The translations under genes were made by a program, and so were the position numbers. The notes under the pieces are model-generated. The model saw only the letters and a list, made by a program, of their open reading frames with translations, was not told the origin of the DNA and did no database searches. This document shows positions 33,049 through 47,649 of a stretch of DNA of 64,000 nucleotides, piece after piece. Where the stretch lies: positions 200-64,199 of the forward strand of contig CALRNG020000001.1 in the NCBI GenBank assembly GCA_943369495.1, given 5' to 3'. This DNA is from Rhizobium sp. Q54. GTDB taxonomy: Bacteria > Pseudomonadota > Alphaproteobacteria > Azospirillales > Azospirillaceae. How positions within the stretch are numbered: position 1 is the stretch's first letter; each line of letters opens with the position of its first letter.

Positions 33049-33276
33049 TCACAAACCATTGCCGGCGACCGTGCCGTCCTTGCGCCGAGACAGCTGCACC
33101 TGGCCCTCCACGCATTTGACATAGGTGGTCTTGCCGAGCGCCAGATTGTCACAAATGGTGATCAAAGCGCGGGGCAGGGAGACGAACTCCTTCGACCCGC
33201 GCACCCCGGCATTGTAGGTGGCCAGATAGGTCTTCAGGGCGGGCTTGGTCACGGGCTGGCCGTTCTGGTCAATCAT
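33049..33276 (-). CDS. Small hypothetical protein (75 aa)
   Basis: Fills the gap upstream of the GT2 gene on the same strand; non-shadow amino-acid composition; no recognised motif. Confidence 0.45.
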   Translation of the reverse strand: MIDQNGQPVTKPALKTYLATYNAGVRGSKEFVSLPRALITICDNLALGKTTYVKCVEGQVQLSRRKDGTVAGNGL

Positions 33277-33413: not shown

Positions 33414-33653
33414 ATGACGCGAGAGACGGCGGGTGTGCGTCAGCGCACCAATGTGACCTTGCCAGAAGCGCTGCTGCGTGAGGCACGCCAACTCAACATC
33501 AACCTGTCGCAGGCCTGTGAGCGCGGCTTGTCTGCCGTCGTTCTGGAAATGAAGGCGGCGCAATGGCAGCAGGAAAATCAGGCGGCCATGGATGCCTGGA
33601 ACGCCCATGTCGAGGAAAAGGGGTTGCCGCTCGCCGAATACAGGCAGTTCTGA
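33414..33653 (+). CDS. ccdA: CcdA family antitoxin
   Basis: 'RQRTNVTL...ARQLNINLSQACE...WQQENQAAMDAWN..VEEKGLPLAEYRQF'. Confidence 0.9.
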   Translation: MTRETAGVRQRTNVTLPEALLREARQLNINLSQACERGLSAVVLEMKAAQWQQENQAAMDAWNAHVEEKGLPLAEYRQF

Positions 33654-33955
33654 TGGCGCGTTTCGATGTCCATGCCATGCCCGGGCAGCGGCCCGGTTAC
33701 CTTCTGGATGTGCAGGCCAACCTGCTGGACCGGCTGGATACAAGGGTTGTCGTCCCCCTGTTTCCAGAGAAGGAAGCACCACCGCCCATGATGGGCCTGA
33801 ACCCGGTATTCGATCTCCGGGGGCAACGCTATGTCATGTTCACCCAGTCCATCGCCACCCTGCGGCGGCGGGATCTGGGCAAGGCCGTTCTGTCGCTTGA
33901 TGACCAGCATCAGCGGATCACGAACGCCCTGGACATGCTGTTGACCGGATACTGA
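33653..33955 (+). CDS. ccdB: CcdB family toxin
   Basis: 'MARFDVH', 'YLLDVQANLL', 'TRVVVPL', 'ITNALDMLLTGY'; TGATG coupling with ccdA. Confidence 0.9.
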   Translation: MARFDVHAMPGQRPGYLLDVQANLLDRLDTRVVVPLFPEKEAPPPMMGLNPVFDLRGQRYVMFTQSIATLRRRDLGKAVLSLDDQHQRITNALDMLLTGY

Positions 33956-33965
33956 GGCAAGAACT

Positions 33966-33989
33966 GATATCAAAAAGCTATCTGATATC
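33966..33989 (+). repeat. 24-bp parS-like motif copy
   Basis: GATATC-AAAAA-GCTATC-T-GATATC inside inverted repeat GAACTGATATC...GATATCAGTTC (33961-33994). Confidence 0.6.
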
Positions 33990-35703
33990 AGTTCTGGACG
34001 ACCCGCCCCGCCGCCAGTTCCAGGACCCGGTCGGCGGCGCGGCGGGTCGCCTCGCGGTGGGTGACGGCCAGGATGGTCAGTTTGCCGCGCAGCCGGTCGA
34101 GCGTTTCCAGCACCAGTGCCTCCGACCCGCCATCCAGGGCCGAGGTGGCCTCATCCAGGATCAGCAGGCGGGGGCGGCGCAGCAAGGCACGGGCGATGGC
34201 GAGGCGTTGGCGTTCCCCACCGGAAACCGAATTGCCCCGGTCACCGACGATGGTATCCAGCCCCTGGGGCAGGGCGCGCACGAAGAGGGCGGCGCCGGCA
34301 TCCTCCAGCGCGGTCCAGAGGGCGGCCTCCGTCGCTTGCGGATCGGCCAGCAGCAGATTGGCCCGGATCGTGTCATGGAACAGGAACGGGTCCTGCGGCA
34401 CGACGGCCACCTGACGGCGCCAGGCGGACAGGCGCTCGGGGGTCAGGACATGTCCATCGACCGCTATCGTGCCGGCAGTCGGCAGCGTCAGTCCCGATAC
34501 CAGATCCGCGAGACTGGATTTACCCGCCCCCGATGGGCCGGTAACGGCCAGCAGGATGTTGCAGGGCAGGTCGAGGTCAATGCCCTCCAAGGCCAGGCGC
34601 CCATCGGGCATGCGCAGGCTGACGCCTTGCAGGGCAAGGTGGTGGGAAAAGGGGGGCAGGTCGGACCCGGCCGGTGGTTCCGCCCCGGCCCGCAGCCGGT
34701 CGCGCATCTGTTCATAAAGCCCCACGGCGGGCAGGGCGCTTTCCAGCTGCCGCCAGACCCGCATGCCGCCCAGTCCCCGCTGCGCCAGACGCGCGAAAGC
34801 CAGGATCACTACCAGGGCCTCGCTCAAAGGCTGGTCCAGCCACAGGGCTGCCGTCGCCACGGCCAGGGCCGCCAGCCCCGCTGCTGTCAGCATCAGGGCG
34901 GCCTGTTCATAGGCCATGATGCGGGCATGGCGGGCCTGGAGATGGCGCAGATCGGCAAAATGCTGGGACAGGACACCCTGTCGAACCTTCTCGGCCCCCA
35001 GCCCCTTGATGATGCGCAGGCCCGCCAGATCATCGCTCAGGTCGGCCATCATCGCCTGCTGCGCCCGGCCCAGGCGCACCCCGATATCAAAGCCGCTTTT
35101 CCCGATGCGCCGGATCAGCAGCAGCGCCAGCAGGGCGGCTGCCAGGGTGGCCAGGGTCAGAGGCGGTGACAGCAGCAGGGCCGCCAGCAGCAGGGTGGGC
35201 AGGGTCAGGGCCGCAATGCCGAGATTGACCAGCGCGTCATGGCACAGGCCCAGACGGTTCACCTCGATCGTCAGGATCTGCTTCACATCACTGGCGCGCA
35301 GCGTCTGGAATATCGGCCAGCAGACATGCAGCAGGGCCTTATGCAGGTCGCTGCGCAAGCCATCCACGAAGCGGTTGCGCTGGTCATTGCCGATGATGGA
35401 GCGCGCGGCGGTCACAGCGGCGGCGGCGGCGACCAGCAGCAGATAAAGCCCCAGCCCCCCCAGCAAGGGGCCGGCGGCCCGCGACCCGCCACCGCCCACC
35501 CCCACTACCTCCAGCACGGGCACCAGCAGCAGCAGCCCCGCCCCTTCGGCCAGCGTGGCGGCCAGCCCCAGGCCCAGCAGCAGTGCCCCCCGTCGCCGCC
35601 CATAGGAGGCGGCCAGCAGGGCCAGCAGGCGGCGGGCGGTGGCAGGGGCTGTCAGGGCGGGTGACGGCATGGGGGCCAGCAGGACGGTTGGGCGGGGGAT
35701 CAT
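33988..35703 (-). CDS. ABC exporter (fused TMD+NBD), putative lasso peptide transporter
   Basis: Hydrophobic N-terminal half; 'GPSGAGKS', 'VSGGERQR', 'ILDEATS'. No C39 domain; divergent from the lasso B2 gene. Confidence 0.88.
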   Translation of the reverse strand: MIPRPTVLLAPMPSPALTAPATARRLLALLAASYGRRRGALLLGLGLAATLAEGAGLLLLVPVLEVVGVGGGGSRAAGPLLGGLGLYLLLVAAAAAVTAARSIIGNDQRNRFVDGLRSDLHKALLHVCWPIFQTLRASDVKQILTIEVNRLGLCHDALVNLGIAALTLPTLLLAALLLSPPLTLATLAAALLALLLIRRIGKSGFDIGVRLGRAQQAMMADLSDDLAGLRIIKGLGAEKVRQGVLSQHFADLRHLQARHARIMAYEQAALMLTAAGLAALAVATAALWLDQPLSEALVVILAFARLAQRGLGGMRVWRQLESALPAVGLYEQMRDRLRAGAEPPAGSDLPPFSHHLALQGVSLRMPDGRLALEGIDLDLPCNILLAVTGPSGAGKSSLADLVSGLTLPTAGTIAVDGHVLTPERLSAWRRQVAVVPQDPFLFHDTIRANLLLADPQATEAALWTALEDAGAALFVRALPQGLDTIVGDRGNSVSGGERQRLAIARALLRRPRLLILDEATSALDGGSEALVLETLDRLRGKLTILAVTHREATRRAADRVLELAAGRVVQN

Positions 35704-35777
35704 GAGCCCGGCCGGCGTGGGAACGCCAGCCCCTTGTTGCAGGCTTCGGGTCCTGGCGTTCTGGTCGGTCCGGTCCT

Positions 35778-36230
35778 ATGGTGCCCGTTGGAGCAGCAGG
35801 GACGGGGATCATGGTGGTCGGTCGGCTACGCAGACTGGAGGCGGCCTTGGCGCTGATACTGGCCTGGATGCTGGTCTTTCTGGTGCCGCTGCGCCTGCTG
35901 GGAACTGTGAACGCCCCTGGTGCCCGACCGGAGAGCCCTGACGATCCCCGCTTCCTGGCGCGGGCCCAGAGCGTGGCGCGGCGTGCCGACCGGGTCGCAG
36001 ACCGGCTGCCCTGGCGCAGTACCTGTCTGGTCCGGGCCGTGGCCGTCTGGCTGCTGTTGCGCCGGCGCGGCAGCCGGGGAGCGGCGATCCGGCTTGGCGT
36101 GCGCAGACAGGACGGTCTTCTGCAGGCCCATGCCTGGCTGCTGCTGCACGGCACCATCCTGACCGGCGGGGAGGAGGCGGATGGCTATGTGCCACTGGCT
36201 GACTTTTCGGTTGACCGGAAACAGTTCTAG
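35778..36230 (+). CDS. Lasso peptide leader peptidase B2 (transglutaminase-like)
   Basis: 'STCLVRAVA...IRLGV...AHAWL' Cys-His signature; alternative start 35811. Confidence 0.88.
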   Translation: MVPVGAAGTGIMVVGRLRRLEAALALILAWMLVFLVPLRLLGTVNAPGARPESPDDPRFLARAQSVARRADRVADRLPWRSTCLVRAVAVWLLLRRRGSRGAAIRLGVRRQDGLLQAHAWLLLHGTILTGGEEADGYVPLADFSVDRKQF

Positions 36231-36271
36231 CTTTCAGTTCGTCCAAGCGCCGGGCTGGCAGTCGCCAGCCT

Positions 36272-36423
36272 CCAATCCGACAAAGGTCAAACCTTCGGCG
36301 GATTGGTATAATACCAGCGGCTTGAAATACTGACAGGTCAGCATTTCAAGCTTCGGCGGCATGGGCCGCCGCCGCGCCAGTCGGCGCGGATACTAACGGT
36401 CAAAATTTTTGACCGTTAGTATA
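36272..36423. repeat. Two adjacent hairpin-ended intergenic repeats
   Basis: CCAATCCG...CGGATTGGTAT hairpin, then ATACCAGCGGCTTGAAATACTGAC/GTCAGCATTTCAAGC ... ATACTAACGGTCAAAATTTTTGACCGTTAGTAT. Confidence 0.75.
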
Positions 36424-37083
36424 ATGATCTTCAGGCGCCGATCCCCGGGCGCGGTAATGGGCCAGCAGGTGAGGGCACAGGCTTTCCAGCGCTTCCTCCA
36501 GGCCGGGCGGGCGCTTCTGATCCCGGAACCGGTCGGTCAGGCCCTTGGTCCGGGCATTGCCGAAGACCACCTCCATCTCCTCCTGCAAGGCGGGTTCCGC
36601 CGCCCAGAGGCTGCCGAGCAACTCATCATAGGAGCGGCGGAACTGGAAATAATCCTCTGTGATGGGCCAGTCGAGGGCGGCCATGGTGGCCAGAATGGCG
36701 GGGTCGCGGGCCACCAGATCCTCGTAATGGATGACGGCGTCGAACCGGTCGCGCGCCAGGAACAGCCCTTCCAGAATCTGGAATTTCTCATGCATGAGGC
36801 CGCTGTAATGGCGGTAGGGCTTGGTGCGCAGGCTGGCGTAATTGTCGCGCGGGTCGCGCAGCAACAGCACGGTACGGTCGGGGCGGAACCGCTCCACATG
36901 CACCGCCAGGGGATAGGCCGTGGTGATCACGGCCTTGGCCACGAAATCCAGGGACGTCGTCACGCGCGGGGCTGCGAAATTGTTGGGAATATCGACCAGC
37001 GCCACGCAGCCTGGCCGTTGTGCCAGCACCTGGGTGAAGGCGGTGGCACCGCTGGACTGCATGCCATGGACCAGCAATCTCAT
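36400..37083 (-). CDS. Sulfotransferase-like P-loop protein
   Basis: 'HGMQSSGAT', 'LLRDPRDNYAS', 'IHYEDLV'; start overlaps the upstream stop. Confidence 0.7.
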   Translation of the reverse strand: MRLLVHGMQSSGATAFTQVLAQRPGCVALVDIPNNFAAPRVTTSLDFVAKAVITTAYPLAVHVERFRPDRTVLLLRDPRDNYASLRTKPYRHYSGLMHEKFQILEGLFLARDRFDAVIHYEDLVARDPAILATMAALDWPITEDYFQFRRSYDELLGSLWAAEPALQEEMEVVFGNARTKGLTDRFRDQKRPPGLEEALESLCPHLLAHYRARGSAPEDHYTNGQKF

Positions 37084-37874
37084 GTCGGCTCTCCGGCGCC
37101 GGTCAGCCAGTCCCTGTTGATCTCGGCGGTGATGAAGACATAGCGGCGGGTATGCGGCGTGGGCCAGCGCATCCCGACCCCGTGCAGGGCGTGGATGTTC
37201 TGCGGGAACAACACCAGCTGATTGGCGCGGTAGGGGATGCGCGCCACTTCCTCCACCGCCGTTTCCGGCAGCTGCTCGACAAAGGGTGAGGTGGCTACCA
37301 CCCCGTCCCGCCAGCGATAGAGGCACAGTTCGCCGCCCTGGCTGTCATCTTCCGGCGCGCGCAGGTAGAACAGGCCCGAGAACAGCCGGTTGGGCGTGTC
37401 CAGATGGGGACCCCGCGCGCGGGACGGTCCGTCCCGCACAGGCGTGTTGATTTCCAGCCTTGCATCCTGGCGGATCTCCAGCCCCGTGGCCGCAGGAGGC
37501 TGTGTCAGGTCGTACAGGCTGGTCGGATGGCCCGTCAGGCGACCGCCGAGCGCCGCCAGCATGGAAGGCTGCCAGTAGCCGTCGAACAGGGTCGCCACTT
37601 CCGCCAGGAAGTCCGGGCTGGTGTGGTAAGCCGCGAAGCGTTTCCAGCCGTCAGGCACGTCGTCCAGCATCGCCAGCATGCGGGCCGGCAGCACATAGCG
37701 GCGGTTGCCGCGCCCCCGGTCACTGGACAGGCCGGGGGCGATGCGACCGGGTGCCGGGAAGCCGGCGGCCAGTTCCGCATAGAACCTTGCCTCCAGTACA
37801 TCGGGAATGACGATATGGGGAAAGGGGTCGGTGCGGATATCAGCATGCGTCACATGGGCGAGCAGTGAACGCAT
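37080..37874 (-). CDS. 2OG-Fe(II) oxygenase
   Basis: 'DPFPHIVI', 'GPHLD' (HxD), 'GGEL', 'ALHGV', 'RRYVFI'. Confidence 0.82.
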   Translation of the reverse strand: MRSLLAHVTHADIRTDPFPHIVIPDVLEARFYAELAAGFPAPGRIAPGLSSDRGRGNRRYVLPARMLAMLDDVPDGWKRFAAYHTSPDFLAEVATLFDGYWQPSMLAALGGRLTGHPTSLYDLTQPPAATGLEIRQDARLEINTPVRDGPSRARGPHLDTPNRLFSGLFYLRAPEDDSQGGELCLYRWRDGVVATSPFVEQLPETAVEEVARIPYRANQLVLFPQNIHALHGVGMRWPTPHTRRYVFITAEINRDWLTGAGEPT

Positions 37875-37878
37875 GCGG

Positions 37879-39723
37879 TCATTCCCCCCGACCGGTTCCG
37901 GCCTTGCCCGCCGCCCATTCCCGCAGGGCCGCTTCCACTTCCGGTATGACATCGGACCAGTCGGCCCAACGCTTCTGCCGGAACAGGCGCATGCGTGGAT
38001 ACCAGGGGGTCGTGTCCCCCTTCTGCATCCAGCGCCAGCAGCCATCATAGCGCGACAACAGCAGCACGGGAATGTCGAGGCCGCCCGCCAGATGCGCCGT
38101 CGAGGTATCGACGCTGATCACCAGATCAAGGTGGCTGACCAGGGCAGCGGTATCGGCGAAATCCGACAGTTCCGCCGTCCAATCATGGATGGGGAAGGGC
38201 GGGTCGGCCATCTGGGCGGCACCGGCCCCTTTCTGCAGGCTGACGAAGCTGACGCCGGGAACGGTCCCCAGCGAGGCCAGTTTCTTCAGGGCGACGCTGC
38301 GTCGCCGGTCGATGGCGGCGGAAATGGGATCATGGGGGCGCGGATCGCCGGCCCAGACCAGTCCCACCTTCAGCCCCGGCAGGTCCGCCAGGCGCTGCCC
38401 CCAGACATCCTTGTCGGCGGGCGGGCAGGACAGATAGGGCGGGTCATAGAGGATGTTGTCGGGTCGCACCCCCAGCCGGTAGGGCAGCGACATCATGGAG
38501 ATGCCGCAATCCCATTCCGCCGGGTCCTCGTCCCTCGTCACCAGCCGGATGCGTGGATCGCTGAGGCCGAACAGCCGGACCAGGGGTTCGTTGGTGAGCA
38601 GACCTACCTGGGCCCCCCTGTCGGCCAGCAGGCGGACATAGCGGAAGAAATGCAGGCTGTCGCCCAGCCCCTGTTCGCTTTCCACCAGGATGCGGCGACC
38701 GGCCGGATCATCGCCGACCCAGGGGCGCAACTTGTCGATCTTGTACCATTGCAGGGTATAGTGGAAATGCTGGTCGCGCTTTTCATAGACGGCCCAGCCC
38801 CGTTCCCAATCACCCGACCGCAACAGATCACAGGCCAGCAGGAAGGCCGTGGTGACGGGATGATCCTCCCCCAGGGCCGCTTCCAGGGCCATGGTCTTCT
38901 CATAGAGCGGAAAGCTCTTGTCGAACCGGCCTTCAAAGGAATGGATGGTCGCCAGATTGGCCAGGCCGGGCACCATGTCAGGTTCCCGTTCCAGCCCCTT
39001 CTCCAGAGCCTCTACCGCCTCCACAAACCGCCCCTGCGAGCGCAGGACGGCGCCCAGGGTGCACCAGGCCGTTCCCAGTTCCGGCGCCAGTTCCGTGACG
39101 ACCCGCCGGGCCAGCGCCTCGGCCTCCTCAAACTCACCCACTGTTTCCAGGACCGACGCCAGATTGGTCATGGCGACGGGATCGTTGGGATAGAAGGCCA
39201 GTGATTGGCGCAGATTGGTGATGCCGCTGGCATAATCCCGCATGTTCGCCTGGATCAGGCCCAGGGCGCCCAGGACCTGCGGATAGGCGGCATTGATATG
39301 GGCCGCCTCCATGACATAGGGATAGGCGTCGGCATAGGCGAGGCGGGCGATCAGTCCCCGCGCCTCCTCCATCAGCAGATCCAGCAGCAGGCCGCCGGCG
39401 GAATGGGCGGGTACCTGTGCGACCACGGCCCGCAGCAGCCCTGCCGCCCGGCTCCTGTCGCCGGTATCGATCAGGGCGCGGGCCAGTTCGGCCATGGCGT
39501 TGACATGGTCTGGCCGCCGTTCGATCAACCGCTCCAGCACGGCCACCGCCTCGACCGACCGTTCCAGGTGACGCAGGGCGATGCCGTAAAGGAACAACCC
39601 ATCGTCACTACACTGACCTTCTGCATCCAGGGCCGCATACAGGGCGGCCACCCGGGGCTGGTCATCCTCACGGCAGGCCTGCTCGGCGGCCTGATGGCGG
39701 GCGGCGATATCCATGGGGGTCAT
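37879..39723 (-). CDS. TPR-repeat glycosyltransferase (GT9-like C-terminal domain)
   Basis: Many TPRs; 'EQGLGDSLHFFRY', 'VGLVWAG', 'DLVISVDTSTAHLAGGL', 'WRW', 'PWYPRMRLFRQ'. Confidence 0.9.
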   Translation of the reverse strand: MTPMDIAARHQAAEQACREDDQPRVAALYAALDAEGQCSDDGLFLYGIALRHLERSVEAVAVLERLIERRPDHVNAMAELARALIDTGDRSRAAGLLRAVVAQVPAHSAGGLLLDLLMEEARGLIARLAYADAYPYVMEAAHINAAYPQVLGALGLIQANMRDYASGITNLRQSLAFYPNDPVAMTNLASVLETVGEFEEAEALARRVVTELAPELGTAWCTLGAVLRSQGRFVEAVEALEKGLEREPDMVPGLANLATIHSFEGRFDKSFPLYEKTMALEAALGEDHPVTTAFLLACDLLRSGDWERGWAVYEKRDQHFHYTLQWYKIDKLRPWVGDDPAGRRILVESEQGLGDSLHFFRYVRLLADRGAQVGLLTNEPLVRLFGLSDPRIRLVTRDEDPAEWDCGISMMSLPYRLGVRPDNILYDPPYLSCPPADKDVWGQRLADLPGLKVGLVWAGDPRPHDPISAAIDRRRSVALKKLASLGTVPGVSFVSLQKGAGAAQMADPPFPIHDWTAELSDFADTAALVSHLDLVISVDTSTAHLAGGLDIPVLLLSRYDGCWRWMQKGDTTPWYPRMRLFRQKRWADWSDVIPEVEAALREWAAGKAGTGRGE

Positions 39724-40280
39724 TCAGGCTGTTCACGGGTGGCGCCGGGATGGCGCAGATGCAGGCGCGAGACGTCACGACCGGTTGCCACGAAGCCGAG
39801 GCGCGTGTAAAGGGCCAGGGCCCGGCCATTCAGGGGATCGACGGAAAGTGCCAGCCCCTTGCCGACCGCAGCTGCCTGCCGGATGAGATCGCCCAGCAGG
39901 GCGCTGCCGCTGCCCCGACCGCAGGCCGAGGGCAGGAACGCGATATCAACGACCCGCCAGTCGGGGCCGTCCATATCCAGATAAAGCCGACCGACAGGAT
40001 CGGTGCCGCGCAGCAGCAGCCGCCGGGCCGCGTCCGGGTAGCGGCGGCTCCAGTCCTGGCACTGGGCGTCGAACTGCTGGTCACAGAACCAGCGGCACAT
40101 GGCCTCGTCCCAGCCGGTGGCGGCCAGTTCGGCGGCGCGGGTGCTGCGGTAGAGCCGGCGCAGAAAAGGCAGATCGGCGTCCCGTTCGGGACGGACCCGC
40201 AGCCCGGGCGGACGAAGGGCAGGCCCCCTTGCGGTTGCCTGCCCTCCTTCCTTCCGGTCCATTGCGGACGATGGCGTCAT
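39720..40280 (-). CDS. GNAT family N-acetyltransferase
   Basis: 'FLRRLYRSTR', 'QQFDAQ', 'VDIAFLP..CGRGSG', 'LYTRLGF'. Confidence 0.88.
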   Translation of the reverse strand: MTPSSAMDRKEGGQATARGPALRPPGLRVRPERDADLPFLRRLYRSTRAAELAATGWDEAMCRWFCDQQFDAQCQDWSRRYPDAARRLLLRGTDPVGRLYLDMDGPDWRVVDIAFLPSACGRGSGSALLGDLIRQAAAVGKGLALSVDPLNGRALALYTRLGFVATGRDVSRLHLRHPGATREQPE

Positions 40281-40283
40281 GCG

Positions 40284-40844
40284 TCAGTTCCGGGATGGCC
40301 ACGTCCCATCAAAGCAGATGCAATAGCGCATGACCAGCATCGGGGAGCGGTTTTCATGCGCCGTATTGCCGCCAGCCACCGACAGTGCGCTCGGCGCCAT
40401 CGTACTCAGGGTCGGGCTCAGCGTCGAATTGATATACATGCCCAGCCCGTAGGCGCGGGTGCCCGGCGGCCGATACTGTGGGTTGGAAGGAACAGCGGTC
40501 GAACCGGGAGCCGTCACGCGCACCACGGAGAGCTGCGATACCATGCTGTGGTCATGGGACGGGATCTGAGCGATGTTCAGGGTCACTATGGCCTGACCCA
40601 GGGTCGCGGCCACCGGGTAGGGACCACCGGCGGCGGTGCTCGTGCCCGAATAGCCCAGAACCACCCGCCCGTTCAGGTTGGGAACGGCGAAGGTGGTCTT
40701 ACCGTCGCCGCCATATGTGATGCCAAGGATGGCGGCCAGCGCCTGATACTGTTGGATGGAGTGGAGAGACCCATCGCATGTCAGCCAGCCGGCGGGCGTG
40801 AACATATACGGGAAGGCCCGGATTTCACCAATGAACGCGTCCAT
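40284..40844 (-). CDS. Phage tail-collar domain protein (microcystin-dependent-protein-like), paralog 3
   Basis: 'FIGEIRAF', 'GWLTCDG', 'TFAVPNLNGR', 'IPSHDH', 'HENRSP...YCI'. Confidence 0.9.
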   Translation of the reverse strand: MDAFIGEIRAFPYMFTPAGWLTCDGSLHSIQQYQALAAILGITYGGDGKTTFAVPNLNGRVVLGYSGTSTAAGGPYPVAATLGQAIVTLNIAQIPSHDHSMVSQLSVVRVTAPGSTAVPSNPQYRPPGTRAYGLGMYINSTLSPTLSTMAPSALSVAGGNTAHENRSPMLVMRYCICFDGTWPSRN

Positions 40845-40860
40845 TTATGCCTCCCTTTGC

Positions 40861-41394
40861 TCACGCCGCCGGATATAAGCCGTTCAGCGCGATGATGTAA
40901 CGCATGGCCATGGACGGCATCATGTTCATATGCGCCTGTCCGCCGCCGTTCGGCAGGATGACCCCCGCCGCCATGGTCACCGAGACGTTGGTGGCGTTGG
41001 CGGGAGTGTAGAGGTTGAAGCTGTCGCTGGGATCGGCCAGGACGGCATTGATGGGGGACGTGCTGGTGGCCGCGTTGGTCGTCGCCATCTCCGGATGGCT
41101 ATGCAGCGGCAGCTGCGCCTCGGTCAGGGTGACGGCGGTGACGCCACCGGCCTGGCCCAGTTTATAGGGGGAAATACCGGTCCCGCCGCTGGTGCCATAG
41201 CCGATGGGCAGGCGGCCCCGCAGGTCCGGTACCGCGAAGGTCGTTGAGCCGTCCCCGCCATAGACGGTACCCAGCAACGCGAACAGCTCCTGATGGGAGG
41301 CAATATTCAGGATGCTTCCGTCACATTCCTGCCAGTCGGCAGGAACATAAGTGCCGGCGAACAGTCGGATTTCGCCAATATAATAATCGCTCAT
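40861..41394 (-). CDS. Phage tail-collar domain protein, paralog 2
   Basis: 'YIGEIRLFAG', 'WQECDG', 'TFAVPDLRGR', 'LPLHSH', 'HMNMMP...YII'. Confidence 0.9.
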   Translation of the reverse strand: MSDYYIGEIRLFAGTYVPADWQECDGSILNIASHQELFALLGTVYGGDGSTTFAVPDLRGRLPIGYGTSGGTGISPYKLGQAGGVTAVTLTEAQLPLHSHPEMATTNAATSTSPINAVLADPSDSFNLYTPANATNVSVTMAAGVILPNGGGQAHMNMMPSMAMRYIIALNGLYPAA

Positions 41395-41417
41395 GACATG
41401 TCTCCCTTGCCAGGCGG

Positions 41418-41981
41418 TCAGTTGCGGGCCGGATAAATGCCGTTAGTGGCGATGCAATAGCTGAGGGCCAGGAACGGCTGCCGGTTCTCATGCCCGCCAC
41501 TGCCGCCGGCATTGCCGACGATCGACGTGCTCAGCGTCGTCATGGGCGACGCCGCGGGGCCATATAGGGCCGGCGGTGCTGGCTGCGGTGCCGGTACCTG
41601 CGACGGGATGGACGTGATGGCGAAATAACTGTTGGCCGGGTTCGCCGATGCATTGGCTGTGAGGGCCTGCTGATTGGCGGCGACAACCGTGTGGGTATGG
41701 GCCGGCATCTGGGCAACCGACAGGGTCACCGTTTCGGCGCCCGCCGTGTTGCCGACAGTGGGCGGCATGCCCAAGGCGCTGCCATTCATGCCGGCGATGG
41801 CCCGGCCATTGAGGTTCGGCAGATTGAAATTTGTGCCGTTGCCTCCGAACTGGATCCCCAGCAGGGAGTACAGGGCCGTATTCTGCTGGATCACCAGCGA
41901 CTGACCATTGCAGGCCACCCATCCATGGGGGATGTTCTGGTACGGGAAAAGACGGATTTCACCAATGAAATAGTCGGACAC
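41418..41981 (-). CDS. Phage tail-collar domain protein, paralog 1
   Basis: GTG start; 'FIGEIRLF', 'GWVACNG', 'FNLPNLNGR', 'MPAHTH', 'HENRQP...YCI'. Confidence 0.9.
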   Translation of the reverse strand: MSDYFIGEIRLFPYQNIPHGWVACNGQSLVIQQNTALYSLLGIQFGGNGTNFNLPNLNGRAIAGMNGSALGMPPTVGNTAGAETVTLSVAQMPAHTHTVVAANQQALTANASANPANSYFAITSIPSQVPAPQPAPPALYGPAASPMTTLSTSIVGNAGGSGGHENRQPFLALSYCIATNGIYPARN

Positions 41982-42386
41982 GGTTGCCTCCCTATTAGGC
42001 ATAGCCTGACAACCAACCTTGCGACGAACAGGGTTGTTCCGTACAAGGAAGATTGTTGCCAGGAAGTCATATATCCACCCCTGGATGCAAGCGGTATGAA
42101 GATTTAAGGTTGTTTTTCCTGGAAGGGACATAATACAATAATCATTACATGATCGCTGACCGTCCGTTCATAAACGGTATATGAACAACCATATATCTGG
42201 CCGCTCTGCCGGCTCCCGATGCCCCTGCGGCCCTGTCTCCCCGAGTCTGGTATGGCTGAACCGGAAGGGACGCCACCCTTGTCAGGGACGGGTGTATCCT
42301 TTATGATCGCAATCAGTAGAAGAGTGGCTGGGGTCTGCTTCTTCACCCTGCCCCCGCTGTCGTGCAGACACGTACAGGATATGGAT

Positions 42387-42548
42387 ATGAACGCTCCCAA
42401 GACGGTCGGAACCTCCGATCATGCCGCCGGCCAGGATGCGGATCGTCTTCCCTGGACGGCACCCGTCCTGGGCGTCTATGATGCCGCCCGCCTGACGCTG
42501 GGTACCAGCGACCAGACAAATGATAGCGGTCTGAACACCCATTCCTGA
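42387..42548 (+). CDS. Lasso peptide precursor (53 aa; predicted core GTSDQTNDSGLNTHS)
   Basis: Leader 'WTAPVL' ([Y/W]xxPxL), Thr at -2, core Gly1 and Asp8; 12 bp upstream of the cyclase; AGGA RBS. Alternative ATG at 42381. Confidence 0.88.
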   Translation: MNAPKTVGTSDHAAGQDADRLPWTAPVLGVYDAARLTLGTSDQTNDSGLNTHS

Positions 42549-42560
42549 GCCGTTCCTCCC

Positions 42561-44459
42561 ATGTTTCTGGCAGCAACGGGCCCAGTGACGCGTGGTCTCA
42601 GCCACCATGTTCCATCCGGCCTGAGAGCTGTTGGCCTTCACCAAGATGCCGACTGCGGCATCGTCGGTTTTGACCATGAGCCCTCGTCCCCCGGACGAGG
42701 GCGCCCTCAGCCGCGTTCCCTTCCTCGCAGCCCCTCCGGGGCGGTAACCCTGATCAGCGGGGCGCTCTACAATCTTCCCGATCTGGCGTCCGCCCTGGGG
42801 ATGGACCCGTCTTCGGCTCCCGCATTGCTGGTCGATGCCGTCATCGACCGTTGGGGGACGGAGGGACTTGCCCGCCTCAATGGCGATTACGCCCTGGTCC
42901 GCTGGTCGCCGCATAACCGCTCGCTGCTGCTGGCGGCCTGCCCCATGGGTTGGAACAGCCTTTATCATGCGGCCACGCCCGACGGTATCCTGGTGGCCAG
43001 CCGCCCCAGCTGGCTGCTGGCCTTTCCCGAAGTCGATGCCGAACCGGACATCGATACGCTGGCCCTGCGGTTGGCCAAGATGGAGAACCGGGTCGGCGAC
43101 CGCACCCCCTGGCGCCATATAAGGCGCCTGCAGCCGGGTCAGTATCTGGAATGGCGGGACGGGTCCACGCGCATCGCCCCCTTCTGGTCACCGGTGCCGC
43201 GCCGCACCCTGCGCTTGCCCCGCGATGGGGATTATGTGGAGGCCGCGCGCGAGCATCTGGACCGCGCCGTCGCCGCCCGCTGTCCCACGGGGACGCCCAT
43301 CCTGTGCCTGCTGTCGGCGGGGCTGGATTCCCCCGGCATCGTTGCCACGGCGGCCCAATGCCACGACGCGCCCATCCATACGCTGACGGTCCGCGCCGAC
43401 CCAACGGCTCCCCTGCTGGAACCCGGTGCCTGGCACTTCGGGGATGAATGGGAACGCCTGCAGCCCTTCCGGGACCGCTACCCATCCCTGACGGCGCATG
43501 TGGCCGATGCCTGGCAGCCCGATCTGGCCATGGAATTTCCAGGCGGGATGTTGCAAAGCCGTGACTGGCCCTTCAAGAGCCCGTATCAGATCGCCTGGGC
43601 CACGCTTCCCTTGGAACGGGCGGTCCGCGAGCAGGGCATCCAGGTTGTCATAAGCGGTGATGCGGGTAATGTCACGCTGAGCTATACGGGCAGCCATGTG
43701 GCCGCCGACCAGATGCTGGCGGGGCGCTGGTTGCCGGCCTGGCGCAACCTCATTCCCTATCGGGATGATTGGACCGGACGTCCCCGTGCGCTCTGGAACC
43801 AGGGATTGCTTCCCTTGCTATCTCCCGCCATACGCCGGCAGGTGCGCCGTCTGCGTGGCAAGACTGATTACTGGTGGCAGGAATGGAGCAGCATCCAGCC
43901 AGAGGTGGCGCAACGCCTGCAACTGGACGACCATGACCGGCCTGGGATCCGGACGGGTTCCCCTGACCTGGACAGGCATATCCATATCCTTGACCGCCAC
44001 CGTCATAACACCGCCCAATATGCCCATTTCCTGCAAGGGCAGAGCTGGTCCTGGCGCGACCCCTATACCGACCTGGCCCTGGTGGAATTCTGCCTGTCGC
44101 TGCCGCGCGATCAGTTCCGCCGGGACGGGGTCAACCGCCTGCTGGCCCGCCGGACCCTGGCCGACCGCGTGCCGGACACGATCCTGAATGAACGCCGTAT
44201 CGGGCTGCAACATGCCGACTGGTATGGCTGGATGAGCCGGCGGCGCGGCTGGATGGCGGCCGAGATCGACCGGATCGAACGCTCGCCCCTGGCCTGTTCC
44301 ATCCTGGACACGCGCCATATGCGCGCCATCCTGGACGCCTGGCCCGCCACGCCGGCAGACGCCGGGCGCTTCCCCACCTCCCACCGGCTGCGCAAGGGGC
44401 TGGGTGAGGCCTTGCGGGTGGGGCAGTTCATCTTGATGCAGGAAGGCCGCAATGAGTGA
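42561..44459 (+). CDS. Lasso peptide cyclase (asparagine synthetase-like, C protein)
   Basis: 'LNGDYALVRW', ATP motif 'LSAGLDS', 'SGDAG', 'DPYTDLALVEFCLSLP'; lacks the N-terminal Cys of true AsnB. Confidence 0.88.
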   Translation: MFLAATGPVTRGLSHHVPSGLRAVGLHQDADCGIVGFDHEPSSPGRGRPQPRSLPRSPSGAVTLISGALYNLPDLASALGMDPSSAPALLVDAVIDRWGTEGLARLNGDYALVRWSPHNRSLLLAACPMGWNSLYHAATPDGILVASRPSWLLAFPEVDAEPDIDTLALRLAKMENRVGDRTPWRHIRRLQPGQYLEWRDGSTRIAPFWSPVPRRTLRLPRDGDYVEAAREHLDRAVAARCPTGTPILCLLSAGLDSPGIVATAAQCHDAPIHTLTVRADPTAPLLEPGAWHFGDEWERLQPFRDRYPSLTAHVADAWQPDLAMEFPGGMLQSRDWPFKSPYQIAWATLPLERAVREQGIQVVISGDAGNVTLSYTGSHVAADQMLAGRWLPAWRNLIPYRDDWTGRPRALWNQGLLPLLSPAIRRQVRRLRGKTDYWWQEWSSIQPEVAQRLQLDDHDRPGIRTGSPDLDRHIHILDRHRHNTAQYAHFLQGQSWSWRDPYTDLALVEFCLSLPRDQFRRDGVNRLLARRTLADRVPDTILNERRIGLQHADWYGWMSRRRGWMAAEIDRIERSPLACSILDTRHMRAILDAWPATPADAGRFPTSHRLRKGLGEALRVGQFILMQEGRNE

Positions 44460-45417
44460 GCCCGATCTGCCGCTGATGCCGGTAACGGCCGCACCCTCGG
44501 CGGAGGGGGGGCGCTTCCTGCTGCGCCCCGTGGGGCCGGCGGATTTCCTATTCGGCCTGCATAATCGTCCGCCGGGCGCCAATCACCCCCCCCTCTTGCT
44601 GCAAGAGGTTGCCATCCGCGCCCATGTGCCGGTGGGCCCCATCCTGCCGCCGATCCTGTCCATCTGGCACCTGACGCGCTGCGGTTCCACCCTGACGGCC
44701 CGCATGCTGTCCTGCATCGAGGCGTTGCAGGTGACGGACGAGCCGGGGGCGCTGGTCGATATCTGCGGTGCCTTCTGGGGCCTGGTGCCGGCCGCCGACC
44801 GGCTGCCGGCGCTGGATATGACCCTGCGGTCGCTGGGGCAGCGGCTGCGGCCGGGGGCGCGCCATCTGGTGGTGAAACAATCGCTGCGCAGCGGGCAGGA
44901 ACTGGACCTGTTCACGCGGCTGCATCCCGACATGCACCGGCTGCTGATCATCCGCGATCCCCTGGAAATCCTGGTGTCGAACCTGCGCAAGCCGCCCGGC
45001 TGGCTGAAATTGCGTAACGTGGTCTGGTCGCCGCTGCTGTCGGGCGTGGGGATGGCTACGCAGCGCGGCCTCAGCGACGCGGAATTCATCGCCCGCTGCC
45101 TGGGCCGCGCCTTCACCGCCATGGCCCGGATGGTGGAAAAGGACCCCGCTGCCTGGCTGATCCTGGATTACACGGAGCTGCCGGGGGCCGTGACGACCCG
45201 GTTGCTGCCGCGCCTGGGCATCACGCCCGGCCCGGACGAACGGGCAGCCATGGAGGAGGCCACGCGTTTGGAGGCCTGGAACCGCAAGGGCCGCCAGCCC
45301 TTTCAGGACGACCGCGCTGACAAGCAGGCCGCCGCCACCCCGGAAATGCACGCCCTGTGCGACCGGTTCCTGCGGGAACCCTGGCAGCGGCTGGCGCTGT
45401 TGCGGCAGCCGTCATGA
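44452..45417 (+). CDS. Sulfotransferase-like protein
   Basis: 'WHLTRCGSTL', 'IIRDPLEILVS', 'LDYTELP', 'FQDDRADKQ'; overlaps the cyclase stop. Confidence 0.7.
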   Translation: MSEPDLPLMPVTAAPSAEGGRFLLRPVGPADFLFGLHNRPPGANHPPLLLQEVAIRAHVPVGPILPPILSIWHLTRCGSTLTARMLSCIEALQVTDEPGALVDICGAFWGLVPAADRLPALDMTLRSLGQRLRPGARHLVVKQSLRSGQELDLFTRLHPDMHRLLIIRDPLEILVSNLRKPPGWLKLRNVVWSPLLSGVGMATQRGLSDAEFIARCLGRAFTAMARMVEKDPAAWLILDYTELPGAVTTRLLPRLGITPGPDERAAMEEATRLEAWNRKGRQPFQDDRADKQAAATPEMHALCDRFLREPWQRLALLRQPS

Positions 45418-46320
45418 AGGATGGCCGGTGACCAGGGCCTCCACGGCGGTGGCCAGGGCCGGCAGGTCGGCCAGATCATCGGTCCGTTCCAGCCGGAAGA
45501 CAGGCGTGGCGCGTGCCAGCGTCACCGCCCAGTCCAGGGCGGTACGGCCCTGGTCCAGCGCACGGCTGAATTCGGGCCGGTAGAGACAGCGCAGCAGCAG
45601 GGCGGCCGCCGCGTGCGGATCGGCCCGTTCCAGGTGCTGTTCCATCCCCCGTGACAGGACCAGCACCAGGCCCAAGGGCATGGGGGCGGGATGGAACCGG
45701 TCCGGCATCGGGATGATGTATTTCTCCAGCCCGTCGCGCACGCGCCGACCAGGGTCCACCGCGTCGCCGGCCAGCGCCGCGGTCCCTGCCCATAGTTTCA
45801 TGGCCGGAAAGCCGGGATGCACTGCCCGTGTGCCGGGGTCGATCACGGCCTGATCATCGCTGACCAGCTCATGGCCCCGCGCGATCAGGGTACGGGCCAG
45901 GGTCGATTTGCCCGCCCCGCTGTCACCGGCCAGGGCCACGGCCATCGGACCTATCGCCACCACGCAGGCATGCATCGGTGGCCGCCCGCGCTGGCACATC
46001 AGCCAGCCGAGCGGCGGCCCGCAGAGCAGGGCATGCAGTTCGGCATCACTGATCTCCGGCGGCAGGTCCGCCGTGATTTCCCGACCCTCCCGGATCAGGA
46101 AACGCGCCCCCCGCACAGCCTGATGCAGGCCGGTGCCATCGGCATAGATAGACAGGCGCCGTGCCTGACGGGTTGGGCTTCCCGCCGGAACCGCCACCGG
46201 GGCGAAGCGCAGCACAACATCCACGGGACGCGCCGGATCGGGTTCCGGCCACTGGAAAGGCAAGGGGCACGGGCTGGACAGGGTCAGCCCGTAAATCCGG
46301 TACCGGTGCTCGCCGGTCAT
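45412..46320 (-). CDS. HPr-kinase-like kinase (lasso peptide kinase type)
   Basis: 'YRIYGL', 'MHAC', Walker A 'GDSGAGKST', 'VSDD', 'PGFPAMKLW'. Confidence 0.88.
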   Translation of the reverse strand: MTGEHRYRIYGLTLSSPCPLPFQWPEPDPARPVDVVLRFAPVAVPAGSPTRQARRLSIYADGTGLHQAVRGARFLIREGREITADLPPEISDAELHALLCGPPLGWLMCQRGRPPMHACVVAIGPMAVALAGDSGAGKSTLARTLIARGHELVSDDQAVIDPGTRAVHPGFPAMKLWAGTAALAGDAVDPGRRVRDGLEKYIIPMPDRFHPAPMPLGLVLVLSRGMEQHLERADPHAAAALLLRCLYRPEFSRALDQGRTALDWAVTLARATPVFRLERTDDLADLPALATAVEALVTGHPS

Positions 46321-46432
46321 CTCGCCTCTTTCCACCCCGGTCAGGCCACCCTTGAGCCATGACATTTACAGCGCCGCTCTGGCTCTGCCATAAATGCCGG
46401 TCTGTTGCCATGGTGAAAAGCAGGCCGCCTTC

Positions 46433-46717
46433 ATGAGCTTCCTCCCCGATACGATCTTCATCCGCGCGTCCGGTCCGCTGACCACCGAGGTGGATGGCGA
46501 ACTGGTGATGCTGGATGTCGAGAGCGGCAGCTATTTCAACCTGGACCGTATCGGTACCGCCATCTGGGGGCTGCTGGCAAATCCCGTGCATTTCGAGGAT
46601 CTGTGCCAGGACCTGCACGCCCGCTATGACGCGCCGCTGGAGACGATCCGTGCGGATGTCGCGGCCCTCTTGTCCCGGATGCTGGAGCATAAGCTGGTGA
46701 GGACGGAGATGCCGTGA
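46433..46717 (+). CDS. PqqD-family RiPP recognition element (lasso B1)
   Basis: 'EVDGELVMLDVESGSYFNLDRIGTAIWGLL...LHARYD...DVAALL'. Confidence 0.92.
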   Translation: MSFLPDTIFIRASGPLTTEVDGELVMLDVESGSYFNLDRIGTAIWGLLANPVHFEDLCQDLHARYDAPLETIRADVAALLSRMLEHKLVRTEMP

Positions 46718-47649
46718 CCGATGCCGCTTCCCCGGATATGGCTGCCCTTGCCCGGCAGGCGGCCTTCCTGCTGCTCCAGGGTCAGGCCGCTCAGGCAGCC
46801 GGGCTGTGCGAGCGCATACGGGACATTGATCCCAATCTGGAGCGGTTCGGCGCCTTTATCGATCTGCTGACCTGGGCTCGACCGCGCGAGCGGCTCTATC
46901 CTCTCATTCGTGATCTGGTGGATGCGGGTTTCGCCAATCCCCGCAGTTTCGATCTGCTGGCCGCCGCCGCCATCTGGGCCGGCGACAGCAAGGCCGCCCG
47001 GGTCCTGACCGATCCCGACCGTTTCCTGTCCATCCTCCCCCTGCACGGGCCCGATGATCCCGATCTGGCGCTGCTGACCCGTGAACTGGGCAGCGGGCTG
47101 GACCATTACGACCGGCCCGGCGACCGGTCCATACGCATGGGATGGCGGCGTAACCATCTGGAGACGGCGGACAGTCCTGTGCTGCGCCGTATGTTCGACC
47201 GGTTATGGCGGGCAGCATTGGATTATGTCGGGCGGCTGCCAGTCGATCCGGACAACCCGTTTCTGCGCTCCAGGCCCGCCGGCCTCAGCCTGCGGGCCTG
47301 GAGTGTGGTGTCGGGCGCCGATACCCATCATCTTTCCCATCTGCATGCCACCAGCTGGGTCAACGGCGTCTATTATGTGGCTGTGCCGCCCGTGACAGGC
47401 GACGAGGTGGGCAAGCCTGGCTGGCTGCGTGTCGGGCCGGCGGCGGGCCGGGGTTTCAATGCCGGCAATGGCTGGGACGAGCGCTGGGTCCGCCCGGAGC
47501 CCGGCCTCGTCGTCCTGATGCCAAGCCATTTCAGCCATGAGACCGTGCCCCTGGGCTGTGACGGGCCGCGGATATGTGTGGCCTTTGAACTATACGCCGC
47601 ACCGGTGGAAACGGCTGATCAGCGGCTGCCGCCGGCCAGCAGTCGATAG
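46714..47649 (+). CDS. Putative 2OG-Fe(II) oxygenase with helical N-terminus
   Basis: 'HLSHLH..SWVNGVYYV', 'PEPGLVVLMPSHFSHETVP', 'RICVAF'; GTGA coupling with B1. Confidence 0.78.
   Translation: MTDAASPDMAALARQAAFLLLQGQAAQAAGLCERIRDIDPNLERFGAFIDLLTWARPRERLYPLIRDLVDAGFANPRSFDLLAAAAIWAGDSKAARVLTDPDRFLSILPLHGPDDPDLALLTRELGSGLDHYDRPGDRSIRMGWRRNHLETADSPVLRRMFDRLWRAALDYVGRLPVDPDNPFLRSRPAGLSLRAWSVVSGADTHHLSHLHATSWVNGVYYVAVPPVTGDEVGKPGWLRVGPAAGRGFNAGNGWDERWVRPEPGLVVLMPSHFSHETVPLGCDGPRICVAFELYAAPVETADQRLPPASSR

What the first reader, a model, noticed from the sequence alone, without database searches (positions are those of the whole stretch)
33988..47649. Hybrid locus: lasso-peptide machinery interdigitated with a tail-collar/GNAT/glycosyltransferase/sulfotransferase operon
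Seen: all lasso core genes are present (precursor, cyclase, B1, B2, kinase, ABC exporter). They surround a tightly coupled minus-strand operon: 3 tail-collar proteins, GNAT, TPR-GT, 2OG oxygenase, sulfotransferase-like protein. That operon is divergent from the precursor-cyclase operon across one ~400-bp intergenic region. A second sulfotransferase-like gene is coupled to the cyclase, and a second 2OG oxygenase to B1. Known: kinase-containing lasso clusters (paeninodin type) and tail-collar-triplet + GNAT cassettes each occur separately. Inference: here they may form one co-regulated surface/biofilm system, in which a modified lasso peptide serves as a signal, anchor or glycan carrier alongside fibre-like proteins, rather than as an antibiotic. 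I know of no characterised system with this combination, but could not search for one.
Basis: partly seen in the sequence, partly recalled or inferred. Interest (0 to 1): 0.9.

Follow-up and report, generated by a model that had tools for sequence, protein, structure and literature searches.

The report
Lasso peptide replaces adhesin beside fibre-tips
A plasmid gene island joins a pathway predicted to make a small, knotted, phosphorylated "lasso" peptide to three proteins resembling a phage tail-fibre tip; the same fibre-tip genes sit beside a giant surface protein in other bacteria, which suggests the peptide likely has an undescribed cell-surface role, not an antibiotic one.

Summary
All listed genes are present. 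The locus is two modules on a plasmid-like contig rich in glycosyltransferase genes. The lasso module is kinase-type: precursor (Gly1-Asp8, C-terminal Ser), cyclase, B1, B2, kinase, exporter. The other module is collar x3 + GNAT, here followed by TPR-glycosyltransferase, oxygenase and a sulfotransferase-like gene. The pairing is not chance. In 122 genomes of the family, 35 of 49 collar clusters lie within 4.3 kb of a lasso-type cyclase; across all loci mapped there are 36 gene orders in 48 loci, and the pairing recurs in six other families. Elsewhere the cassette usually flanks a giant surface protein. A congener (G014) carries this very operon, 87% identical, facing a >4,300-residue adhesin-like gene in place of the precursor and cyclase. 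The halves co-diverge only weakly, and the core has no Lys, so the GNAT probably does not modify the peptide. Best reading (0.4): a fibre-tip heterotrimer works at the cell surface with the anionic lasso as interchangeable partner. My paper searches found no description. This scan noted the pairing before in four other genomes.

The parts
33988..35703 (-). ABC exporter (lasso D-type); first gene of the island
   Evidence: PF00005+PF00664; 77-80% identical copies on related replicons; G014's homologous backbone stops at 33955
35778..36230 (+). Lasso leader peptidase B2 (true start may be a little downstream)
   Evidence: NF033537 above cut-off, PF13471; CL..AV and AHAW motifs in the sequence
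36246..36425 (.). Multi-copy intergenic repeat at the junction between B2 and the collar operon
   Evidence: 92 blastn pieces in the own genome; many copies in G014; G014 operon homology starts at 36441
36400..37083 (-). ST1, sulfotransferase-like by motif only; travels with OG1
   Evidence: No Pfam or PDB hit; 208 relatives, some fused to glycosyl-, methyl- or sulfotransferase domains; motif match
37080..37874 (-). OG1, 2OG-Fe(II) oxygenase
   Evidence: PF13640; 90% identical in the adhesin-linked G014 operon
37879..39723 (-). TPR + GT9-like glycosyltransferase
   Evidence: Pfam TPRs, weak PF01075; 87% identical in G014; paralogues elsewhere in the own genome
39720..40280 (-). GNAT of the collar cassette
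   Evidence: PF00583; present in 41 of 48 lasso-linked loci and in adhesin-type loci
40284..40844 (-). Collar protein 3 (fibre-tip-like, HxH 97-99)
   Evidence: PF07484; invariant HxH
40861..41394 (-). Collar protein 2 (HxH 98-100)
   Evidence: PF07484; matches to T4 gp12/gp37 and cyanophage fibre by sequence and fold
41418..41981 (-). Collar protein 1 (GTG start; HxH 95-97)
   Evidence: PF07484; invariant HxH
41982..42380 (.). Divergent intergenic region; the adhesin-for-lasso switch point of G014 lies near 42120-42135
   Evidence: one sigma70-like match at 42279-42307(+), not above chance overall (5 found, 2.5 +/- 1.5 expected)
42381..42548 (+). Lasso precursor; leader WTAPVL...T(-2); core 42501-42545 GTSDQTNDSGLNTHS (predicted Gly1-Asp8 ring, C-terminal Ser)
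   Evidence: family profile E 1.7e-11, with 1 hit in the reversed-sequence control; dN/dS 0.28
42561..44459 (+). Lasso cyclase (asparagine-synthetase-like)
   Evidence: PF00733; SxGxDS and GxxGN conserved; NF033535 best hit but below cut-off
44452..45417 (+). ST2, sulfotransferase-like; travels with the lasso block here
   Evidence: PF13469 E 0.002; a homologue in L087 scores over the cut-off; syntenic in L022 and L023
45412..46365 (-). HPr-kinase-like lasso kinase
   Evidence: PF07475; His, Walker-A Lys and Asp-Asp motif in the sequence
46394..46717 (+). B1 (PqqD/RRE)
   Evidence: PF05402; NF033536 67.9 bits, cut-off 80
46714..47649 (+). OG2, 2OG-Fe(II) oxygenase (TIGR02466-like)
   Evidence: PF13759; syntenic in L022 and L023
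47619..48170 (-). Serine resolvase at the right border of the island
   Evidence: PF00239; 90-95% identical copies flank different lasso+collar cassettes in G005, G006, G009, G015
27..1127 (-). Nucleotidyltransferase (PF14907), 33 kb away on the same contig; possible PsmN-like part
   Evidence: PF14907 150 bits; this family lies in 7 of 48 lasso-collar loci

Best explanation
The island joins two mobile modules, a kinase-type lasso pathway predicted to export a small anionic cyclic peptide and a collar cassette predicted to build a phage-like fibre-tip heterotrimer, and the peptide likely serves as the tip's cell-surface partner in place of the giant adhesin that flanks the cassette in other bacteria. 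Shown: gene content, recurrence, the partner swap and purifying selection. Inferred from known families: the kinase phosphorylates the C-terminal Ser of the precursor, B1/B2 remove the leader, the cyclase closes Gly1-Asp8 and the ABC protein exports the product. ST2/OG2 and the distant nucleotidyltransferase are the likely extra tailoring enzymes. Inferred from homology: the three collars assemble 1:1:1 into a metal-locked needle with a variable tip that binds a surface glycan, helped by the GNAT; TPR-GT, OG1 and ST1 act on that module or on the glycan, not on the peptide. Speculative: the modified peptide, possibly tied to the surface polysaccharide through its phospho-Ser, docks or presents the tip. 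The fit is loose, not lock-and-key.
For: 35 of 49 family collar clusters lie within 4.3 kb of a lasso-type cyclase (hand count), against about 0.09 expected (rough). In one genus all 16 of 65 genomes with such a cyclase have adjacent collars. 9 of 39 collar loci in a 400-genome phylum sample are lasso-linked, in 6 families. 36 gene orders in 48 loci; core lasso genes on both sides of the collars in 12. Related replicons hold different lasso+collar sets between the same ABC and resolvase genes. Same slot: G014's operon is 86.8% identical over 36441-42117, then faces a DUF4347/Ig/PATR protein of >4,300 aa and nests among lasso-linked triplets (99% and 98% support). At least 7 partner switches; one adhesin clade rejected, p-AU 2e-29. 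Lasso-collar genomes lack DUF4347 more often, 15 of 38 against 9 of 84. Collars match T4 gp12/gp37 tips with an invariant HxH and a variable tip. A virophage triplet of this fold is a proven LPS-binding heterotrimer (PMC12724248). Cores are Ser/Gly/Thr/Asn/Asp-rich and 43 of 48 precursor hits end in Ser.
Against: Collars have no signal peptide and no export route is evident in lasso-type loci. Collar and cyclase distances correlate weakly (r 0.17; 0.13, p 0.08 without close pairs) and collar and kinase not at all (r 0.00), whereas each module is internally coherent (r 0.29-0.59). 17 of 54 family cyclase loci have no collar cluster seen within about 4 kb (some lie at contig ends), including five in G010 and G013; G033's close copy of this lasso block (L023) has none in 20 kb. 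G014 keeps a separate B2-less lasso-like cassette on another contig, so it is not a clean lasso-free control. The window's contig also encodes a 2,623-aa RTX protein 19 kb from the island that could be the tip's partner in trans, and the own genome is only 71% complete.
Confidence: 0.4

Rival explanations
1. Co-travelling but physically independent tools: lasso and collar modules both serve envelope or biofilm building, share regulation and an insertion hot spot on surface-glycan plasmids, and are selected together without touching. The collars would then use a giant protein encoded elsewhere, for example the RTX protein.
For: Weak co-divergence and frequent reassortment. Each module occurs alone (L023, L109). 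Paeninodin-type clusters are reported to co-localise with capsule loci with no known role (PMC13381572). 23 of 38 lasso-collar genomes do hold DUF4347 proteins. RTX gene on the same contig.
Against: Collars lie between core lasso genes in 12 of 48 loci. Unrelated lasso+collar sets replace each other in the same plasmid slot. No lasso-linked locus showed an adjacent DUF4347 gene in the loci scanned with that profile.
Confidence: 0.3
2. Phage or competitor defence: the fibre-tip trimer masks or decoys a surface-glycan receptor, and the lasso peptide acts as a second arm or as a signal.
For: Fold of a phage receptor-binding tip. The tip region is the least conserved part (0.32 against 0.52-0.65). 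The contig carries ccdAB and AbiEii loci and many glycan-modifying genes.
Against: No phage genes nearby, and no defence evidence was tested (PADLOC not scanned). The commoner partner is an adhesin-like protein. Only one short region in one pair shows dN/dS above 1 (48 codons).
Confidence: 0.12
3. Metal handling: the phosphorylated, hydroxylated, acidic peptide chelates Fe or another metal and loads or communicates with the His-x-His site of the collar trimer.
For: HxH is invariant in 43 of 43 rows at each position. Cores are rich in Asp/Asn/Ser. 2OG/JmjC oxygenases recur in these loci. That beta-hydroxy-Asp binds iron, and that gp12/gp37 HxH sites bind Zn/Fe, is recalled, not from a call.
Against: No TonB receptor or isopeptidase among the window's neighbouring genes. 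Adhesin-type collars keep the HxH in genomes with no PqqD/RRE match (23 of 39).
Confidence: 0.1
4. One tailoring pathway, as in the first reader's adduct list: GNAT, TPR-GT and both sulfotransferases and oxygenases all decorate the lasso peptide.
For: All the enzymes lie inside the island; GNAT-, GT- and 2OG-tailored lasso peptides are known (PMC8498205, passages).
Against: No Lys in this core, and Lys in only 12 of 41 collar-linked cores. Known lasso GNATs need Lys and were found only in Actinomycetes (bioRxiv 10.1101/2024.12.31.630886, section 5). The five-gene block moves to an adhesin locus. OG1+ST1 also lie about 40 kb from adhesin-type collars in 3 of 3 genomes looked at.
Confidence: 0.05
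5. Chance insertion of a collar operon into a lasso cluster.
For: A multi-copy repeat marks one junction, and the operon is demonstrably mobile.
Against: Recurrence in 35 of 49 family clusters and in six other families, with many gene orders.
Confidence: 0.03

Closest known systems
Kinase-containing lasso clusters: paeninodin (PadeK), ThcoK, SyanK of Sphingobium yanoikuyae, pseudomycoidin (PsmK/PsmN) (PMC8498205 and PMC9266682, passages read)
   Same: Split B1/B2, cyclase, ABC exporter, HPr-kinase homologue with His-Lys-Asp-Asp, precursor ending in Ser; putative sulfotransferase and nucleotidyltransferase genes are already noted in such clusters; location among polysaccharide genes (PMC13381572).
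   Different: Short polar core (8-residue ring, 7-residue tail); a collar x3-GNAT operon inside the cluster; two oxygenase/sulfotransferase pairs. 'Collar' does not occur in the main text of PMC9266682 or PMC13381572.
Receptor-binding tips of T4 gp12/gp37 (PDB 1ocy, 2xgf) and cyanophage A-1(L) fibre (8kec); tripartite tail proteins of virophage DSLV2 (PMC12724248, abstract and section 20 read)
   Same: Collar domain, HxH motif, about 180-residue tip-only length, three consecutive paralogues. DSLV2's three form an LPS-binding heterotrimer.
   Different: Cellular and plasmid-borne with no virion genes; coupled to a GNAT; assembly and ligand untested here. I did not compare sequences with DSLV2.
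Collar triplet + GNAT + DUF6916 cassette beside giant secreted proteins (uncharacterised; seen in annotated records of Ruegeria, Sinorhizobium, Paenibacillus, Deinococcus and others)
   Same: Same cassette; in several records the giant gene is divergent from the collars exactly where the precursor-cyclase operon lies here.
   Different: Here the partner is a lasso pathway, and DUF6916 is missing from the window and was not found in the 71%-complete genome.
GNAT-acetylated lasso peptides (albusnodin AlbT, IatT; bioRxiv 10.1101/2024.12.31.630886, abstract and section 5 read)
   Same: A GNAT gene inside a lasso cluster.
   Different: Those GNATs act on core Lys and occur in Actinomycetes; this core has no Lys and the GNAT belongs to the collar cassette.

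Membership tests
Lasso peptide cluster | Precursor with RRE-binding motif, Thr at -2, small residue 1 and Asp/Glu at 7-9 | tested here: met
   WTAPVL...TL|G1...D8
Lasso peptide cluster | Asparagine-synthetase-like cyclase with ATP-binding motif | tested here: met
   PF00733; G254/D256 invariant in 19 rows
Lasso peptide cluster | Cyclase passes a curated lasso-cyclase model | tested here: inconclusive
   NF033535 is the best hit at 107 bits, cut-off 525
Lasso peptide cluster | B1 (RRE) and B2 (Cys protease) | tested here: met
   PF05402 over cut-off; NF033537 over cut-off
Lasso peptide cluster | Product is cyclised and threaded | not testable with these tools
   Needs LC-MS, protease/heat tests or NMR; several relatives have short tails without bulky residues
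Kinase-type (paeninodin/SyanK) lasso cluster | HPr-kinase homologue with His-Lys-Asp-Asp | tested here: met
   PF07475; motif residues seen in the sequence; motif defined in PMC9266682
Kinase-type (paeninodin/SyanK) lasso cluster | C-terminal Ser of the core | tested here: met
   Core ends in Ser; 43 of 48 collar-linked precursor hits do
Kinase-type (paeninodin/SyanK) lasso cluster | Phosphorylation of that Ser | not testable with these tools
   Needs an enzyme assay
Pseudomycoidin-type (phosphoglycosylated) lasso | Nucleotidyltransferase in the cluster | tested here: inconclusive
   PF14907 gene on the same contig but 33 kb away
GNAT-acetylated lasso (AlbT/IatT) | Lys in the core | tested here: not met
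   No Lys in the 15-residue core
Phage fibre receptor-binding tip (gp12/gp37, DSLV2 triplet) | Collar domain plus HxH metal site | tested here: met
Phage fibre receptor-binding tip (gp12/gp37, DSLV2 triplet) | Trimer assembly | not tested
Phage fibre receptor-binding tip (gp12/gp37, DSLV2 triplet) | Part of a virion or tailocin gene set | tested here: not met
   No phage structural gene among the window proteins scanned
PAPS-dependent sulfotransferases (ST1) | Family match or intact 5'-PSB and 3'-PB motifs | tested here: inconclusive
   No Pfam/PDB hit; two short motif matches, with the 5' loop lacking the Arg seen in the comparison protein

The most novel reading that the evidence does not exclude
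A ribosomal peptide acts as a structural stand-in for a multi-thousand-residue adhesin: a phosphoglycosylated lasso peptide, tied to the surface polysaccharide, anchors a domesticated phage fibre-tip heterotrimer. Bacteria would swap between a giant-protein stalk and a peptide anchor for the same binding head. This would be a first physical partner, and a first biological role, for kinase-type lasso peptides.
Probability: 0.25. Interest if true: 0.92.

Novelty: new variant of a known kind. Interest (0 to 1): 0.72.

Why it matters
A 2026 paper states that the biological role of paeninodin-type lasso peptides is unknown and that their clusters often lie by capsule loci (PMC13381572). This locus supplies a concrete, testable partner. 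It also comes with natural controls: G014 has the same operon facing an adhesin and the same replicon backbone without the island, and G033 has the same lasso block without nearby collars. The locus thus links two unexplained things, phosphorylated lasso peptides and a widespread non-viral fibre-tip cassette, and says which enzymes belong to which module, so expression and knock-out tests can be aimed. The family includes plant-associated Azospirillum, where surface attachment matters.

Tried and rejected
Complex prediction of the three collars was not available, so trimer formation stays open. The ESM Atlas look-up for ST1 and ST2 did not complete. The metagenome scan with the cyclase alignment did not run (no conserved stretch), so metagenomes were not sampled. 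RNA: one run holds the region at a small share. It is kept as contigs; one 6,456-bp piece about 90% alike spans 38066-44507, which shows another copy of the arrangement, not expression or co-transcription. 'G014 is lasso-free' was rejected: it has a separate cassette without a B2 match on C26. 'Adhesin-type loci hide an RRE beyond the adhesin' was rejected: the PqqD about 30 kb away in genus g3 is the real PQQ operon. Promoter and terminator scans were near chance. Apart from the collar paralogy, the repeat search gave only weak GC-rich matches, and no terminal repeats stood out. Positive selection on the tip is not supported beyond one 48-codon comparison. Two primary papers (Tietz 2017; Zhu 2016) were not held, so their co-occurrence tables and supplements, which could list PF07484, were not seen; bioRxiv supplements are closed. 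Literature searches that found no description of the pairing: (0 papers with 'lasso peptide' + 'tail collar'); I saw listings only, except where a passage is cited.


Full report
OBSERVATION. The precursor at 42381-42548 has a WxxP leader motif, Thr at -2, and the core GTSDQTNDSGLNTHS: predicted Gly1-Asp8 ring, C-terminal Ser, no Lys. Weak points: ST1 is sulfotransferase-like by motif only, ST2 is under the Pfam cut-off, and the cyclase is far under NCBIfam's lasso-cyclase cut-off. All genes compared are under purifying selection (dN/dS 0.04-0.48). Each island gene except the ABC, TPR-GT and collar paralogues is single-copy in the 71%-complete genome.

SETTING. The 74-kb contig looks like a plasmid: ParA-like, AbiEii, RepA_C, ccdAB and resolvase genes among many glycosyl- and methyltransferases. 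The closest named relative is Niveispirillum sp. KHB5.9 (cyclase 83% identical). G009 has the same island on a contig whose ends overlap. G014 has the same backbone, and its homology stops exactly at the ccdB stop (33955), followed by unrelated genes. That fixes the left border; the resolvase marks the right. G005, G006 and G015 carry closely related resolvases (90-95%), and G006 and G015 related ABC genes (77-80%), around different lasso+collar sets whose cyclases are about 30% and collars about 35-45% identical to the window's, in other orders.

RECURRENCE. Family (all 122 genomes of the order held at 85% completeness or more, plus the window's own; hand count): 54 cyclase matches in 38 genomes, and 49 clusters of two or more collars (four single hits left out). 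35 of 49 lie within 4.3 kb of a cyclase. Four more adjoin other lasso genes (G483, G499, G511, G023), seven face a DUF4347 giant (G014 and six of genus g3), and three are unclear (G004, G456, G510). In genus g7, 16 of 65 genomes have the cyclase and all 16 have adjacent collars; 19 have collars (Fisher 1.5e-12, overstated because kin are not independent). The query profiles were built partly from these genomes, but cyclase seeds were chosen by similarity, not by neighbours. Phylum sample (400 genomes): of 39 collar loci read, 9 are lasso-linked (six families, three outside the class), 21 flank a giant or surface-anchored protein (16 by Pfam domain, 5 by size alone) and 9 have no clear partner. 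Of the 20 best cyclase loci fetched (of 34 matches), 7 hold collars. Of 10 annotated plasmid records read (of 79 with a collar match), Azospirillum oryzae NZ_CP054615 has the lasso form with a divergent precursor-cyclase and nine have a large surface-type protein. The 48 lasso-linked loci with a full triplet show 36 orders of the core genes; collars lie between core lasso genes in 12.

TWO MODULES. Pairwise distances of collar triplets track GNAT (r 0.31) and DUF6916 (0.44); the cyclase tracks B1 (0.54), the common sulfotransferase (0.59), kinase (0.39) and B2 (0.29). Across modules the signal is weak: collar-cyclase 0.17 (0.13, p 0.08 without close pairs), collar-B1 0.20, collar-kinase 0.00. 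The collar tree (86 triplets, quick search) needs at least 7 partner changes, and a single adhesin clade is rejected (p-AU 2e-29; 79 rows after leaving out 6 unclassified and 1 duplicate). The clearest case concerns this locus. G014 carries window 36441-42117 at 86.8% DNA identity (proteins 76-92%), but about 140 bp upstream of collar1 it switches to a gene of more than 4,300 codons with DUF4347, Ig and passenger repeats. That triplet nests inside lasso-linked clades (99% and 98% support), so lasso-to-adhesin is the likelier direction. Conversely, G033 has precursor-cyclase-ST2-kinase-B1-OG2 at 48-79% identity with no collar in 20 kb. Against a clean reading: G014 keeps a separate B2-less lasso-like cassette, G033 has collars beside another cyclase, and 23 of 38 lasso-collar genomes hold DUF4347 proteins elsewhere. 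Still, 15 of 38 lack them, against 9 of 84 others (four no-match genomes were inferred from the genus tallies). 23 of 39 other collar-bearing genomes have no PqqD/RRE match at all, so the cassette works without any lasso pathway.

WHAT THE PARTS ARE. The collars match the T4 gp12 tip and a cyanophage fibre by sequence (E 6e-9 to 8e-7) and by fold, where the gp37 needle also appears (monomer models, mean pLDDT 54 and 72, confident only in the collar). HxH is invariant and the segment after it is the most variable. Best hits keep their position in the triplet in 4,994 of 8,586 comparisons, as expected for three distinct subunits. They have no signal peptide. A virophage triplet of this fold is a purified LPS-binding heterotrimer (PMC12724248, abstract and section 20; lead from the scan's notes, read here). 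Precursors of collar-linked loci are short and polar, and 43 of 48 hits end in Ser; so do 19 of 22 from loci without collars, so the cores do not distinguish the two. Kinases of this type phosphorylate that Ser before cyclisation, and a nucleotidyltransferase adds hexose in pseudomycoidin (PMC8498205, PMC9266682, passages). A PF14907 gene lies at 27-1127 on this contig.

MECHANISM. Most likely (0.4): the lasso module exports an anionic phospho-peptide, the collar module builds a glycan-binding fibre tip, and the peptide fills the role that the giant surface protein has in the other form. The peptide chemistry and the trimer are inferred from homologues; the contact between them is speculation that rests on the shared, mutually exclusive genomic slot. 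The main rival (0.3) is co-selection without contact. Defence (0.12), metal handling (0.10), a single tailoring pathway (0.05) and chance (0.03) follow.

KNOWN AND NEW. The lasso half is a new member of the kinase-type family; threading and modification are untested. The collar half works like a phage fibre tip but is not part of a phage. Nine searches of the held library found no description of the pairing; subscription papers and two primary papers were not visible. The scan's own notes report the pairing in four other genomes and the adhesin form in seven; these are unchecked AI notes and were not used as support. What this window adds is a near-identical operon caught in both states, an empty-site backbone, and a measured split between the modules.

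VERDICT. Real, conserved and unexplained; a new variant of a known kind; interest 0.72.

Noticed in passing
window 27-1127 (-): PF14907 nucleotidyltransferase of the family found in lasso clusters, 33 kb from the island on the same contig; G009 has one too (L163).
   Followed up: partly
window 6891-14762 (+): 2,623-aa RTX-repeat protein; a possible in-trans partner for the collars. My large-ORF caller found no such gene in G009's matching contig parts (L162, L163).
   Followed up: partly
window 1176-4212, 29352-30281, 33414-33955: Plasmid functions: ParA/VirC1-like gene with a small partner, an AbiEii pair, RepA_C (95-97% identical across congeners), ccdAB.
   Followed up: partly
window 36246-36425 and 28371-28488: Two multi-copy intergenic repeat elements (92 and 59 blastn pieces in the own genome; many in G014); the first marks the edge of the mobile collar operon.
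   Followed up: partly
L108:11065 onward; L073, L074, L080, L092, L095, L101, L103, L110: DUF4347 domains of the giant proteins show a hydrophobic strand + SHG-like motif and an LYGC motif, which recalls caspase-fold cysteine proteases (recalled, not tested); the giants may self-process.
   Followed up: no
L114:9931-10209 (G009): B2 of G009's copy of the island appears truncated or frameshifted (only profile positions 63-115 match); G009 has an intact B2 in another lasso cluster.
   Followed up: no
L160:1337-8327 (G014:C26): Lower-GC lasso-like cassette (cyclase, JmjC, precursor, ST2, kinase, B1, methyltransferase) in a genome with no B2 match.
   Followed up: partly
L109 (G004:C38) and L123 (G510:C20): Collar-GNAT-DUF6916 cassettes with neither a cyclase nor an adhesin nearby; both are close kin of lasso-linked triplets and may be remnants.
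   Followed up: no
L164-L169: Single or double collars also face DUF4347 giants divergently in several family members, so the triplet is not obligatory in the adhesin form.
   Followed up: partly
L035, L036, L107, L034 precursors: Several cores have only 5-8 small residues after the ring Asp and little steric bulk; the modified terminal Ser might act as the plug, or the products may be unthreaded.
   Followed up: no
window 48363-49439 (-): Ala/Val/Gln/Thr-rich protein with a signal-like N-terminus and no Pfam hit, next to the resolvase; 74% identical in G015.
   Followed up: no
window 33049-33276 (-): Conserved 75-aa protein of no family on the plasmid backbone (also in G006, G009, G014).
   Followed up: no
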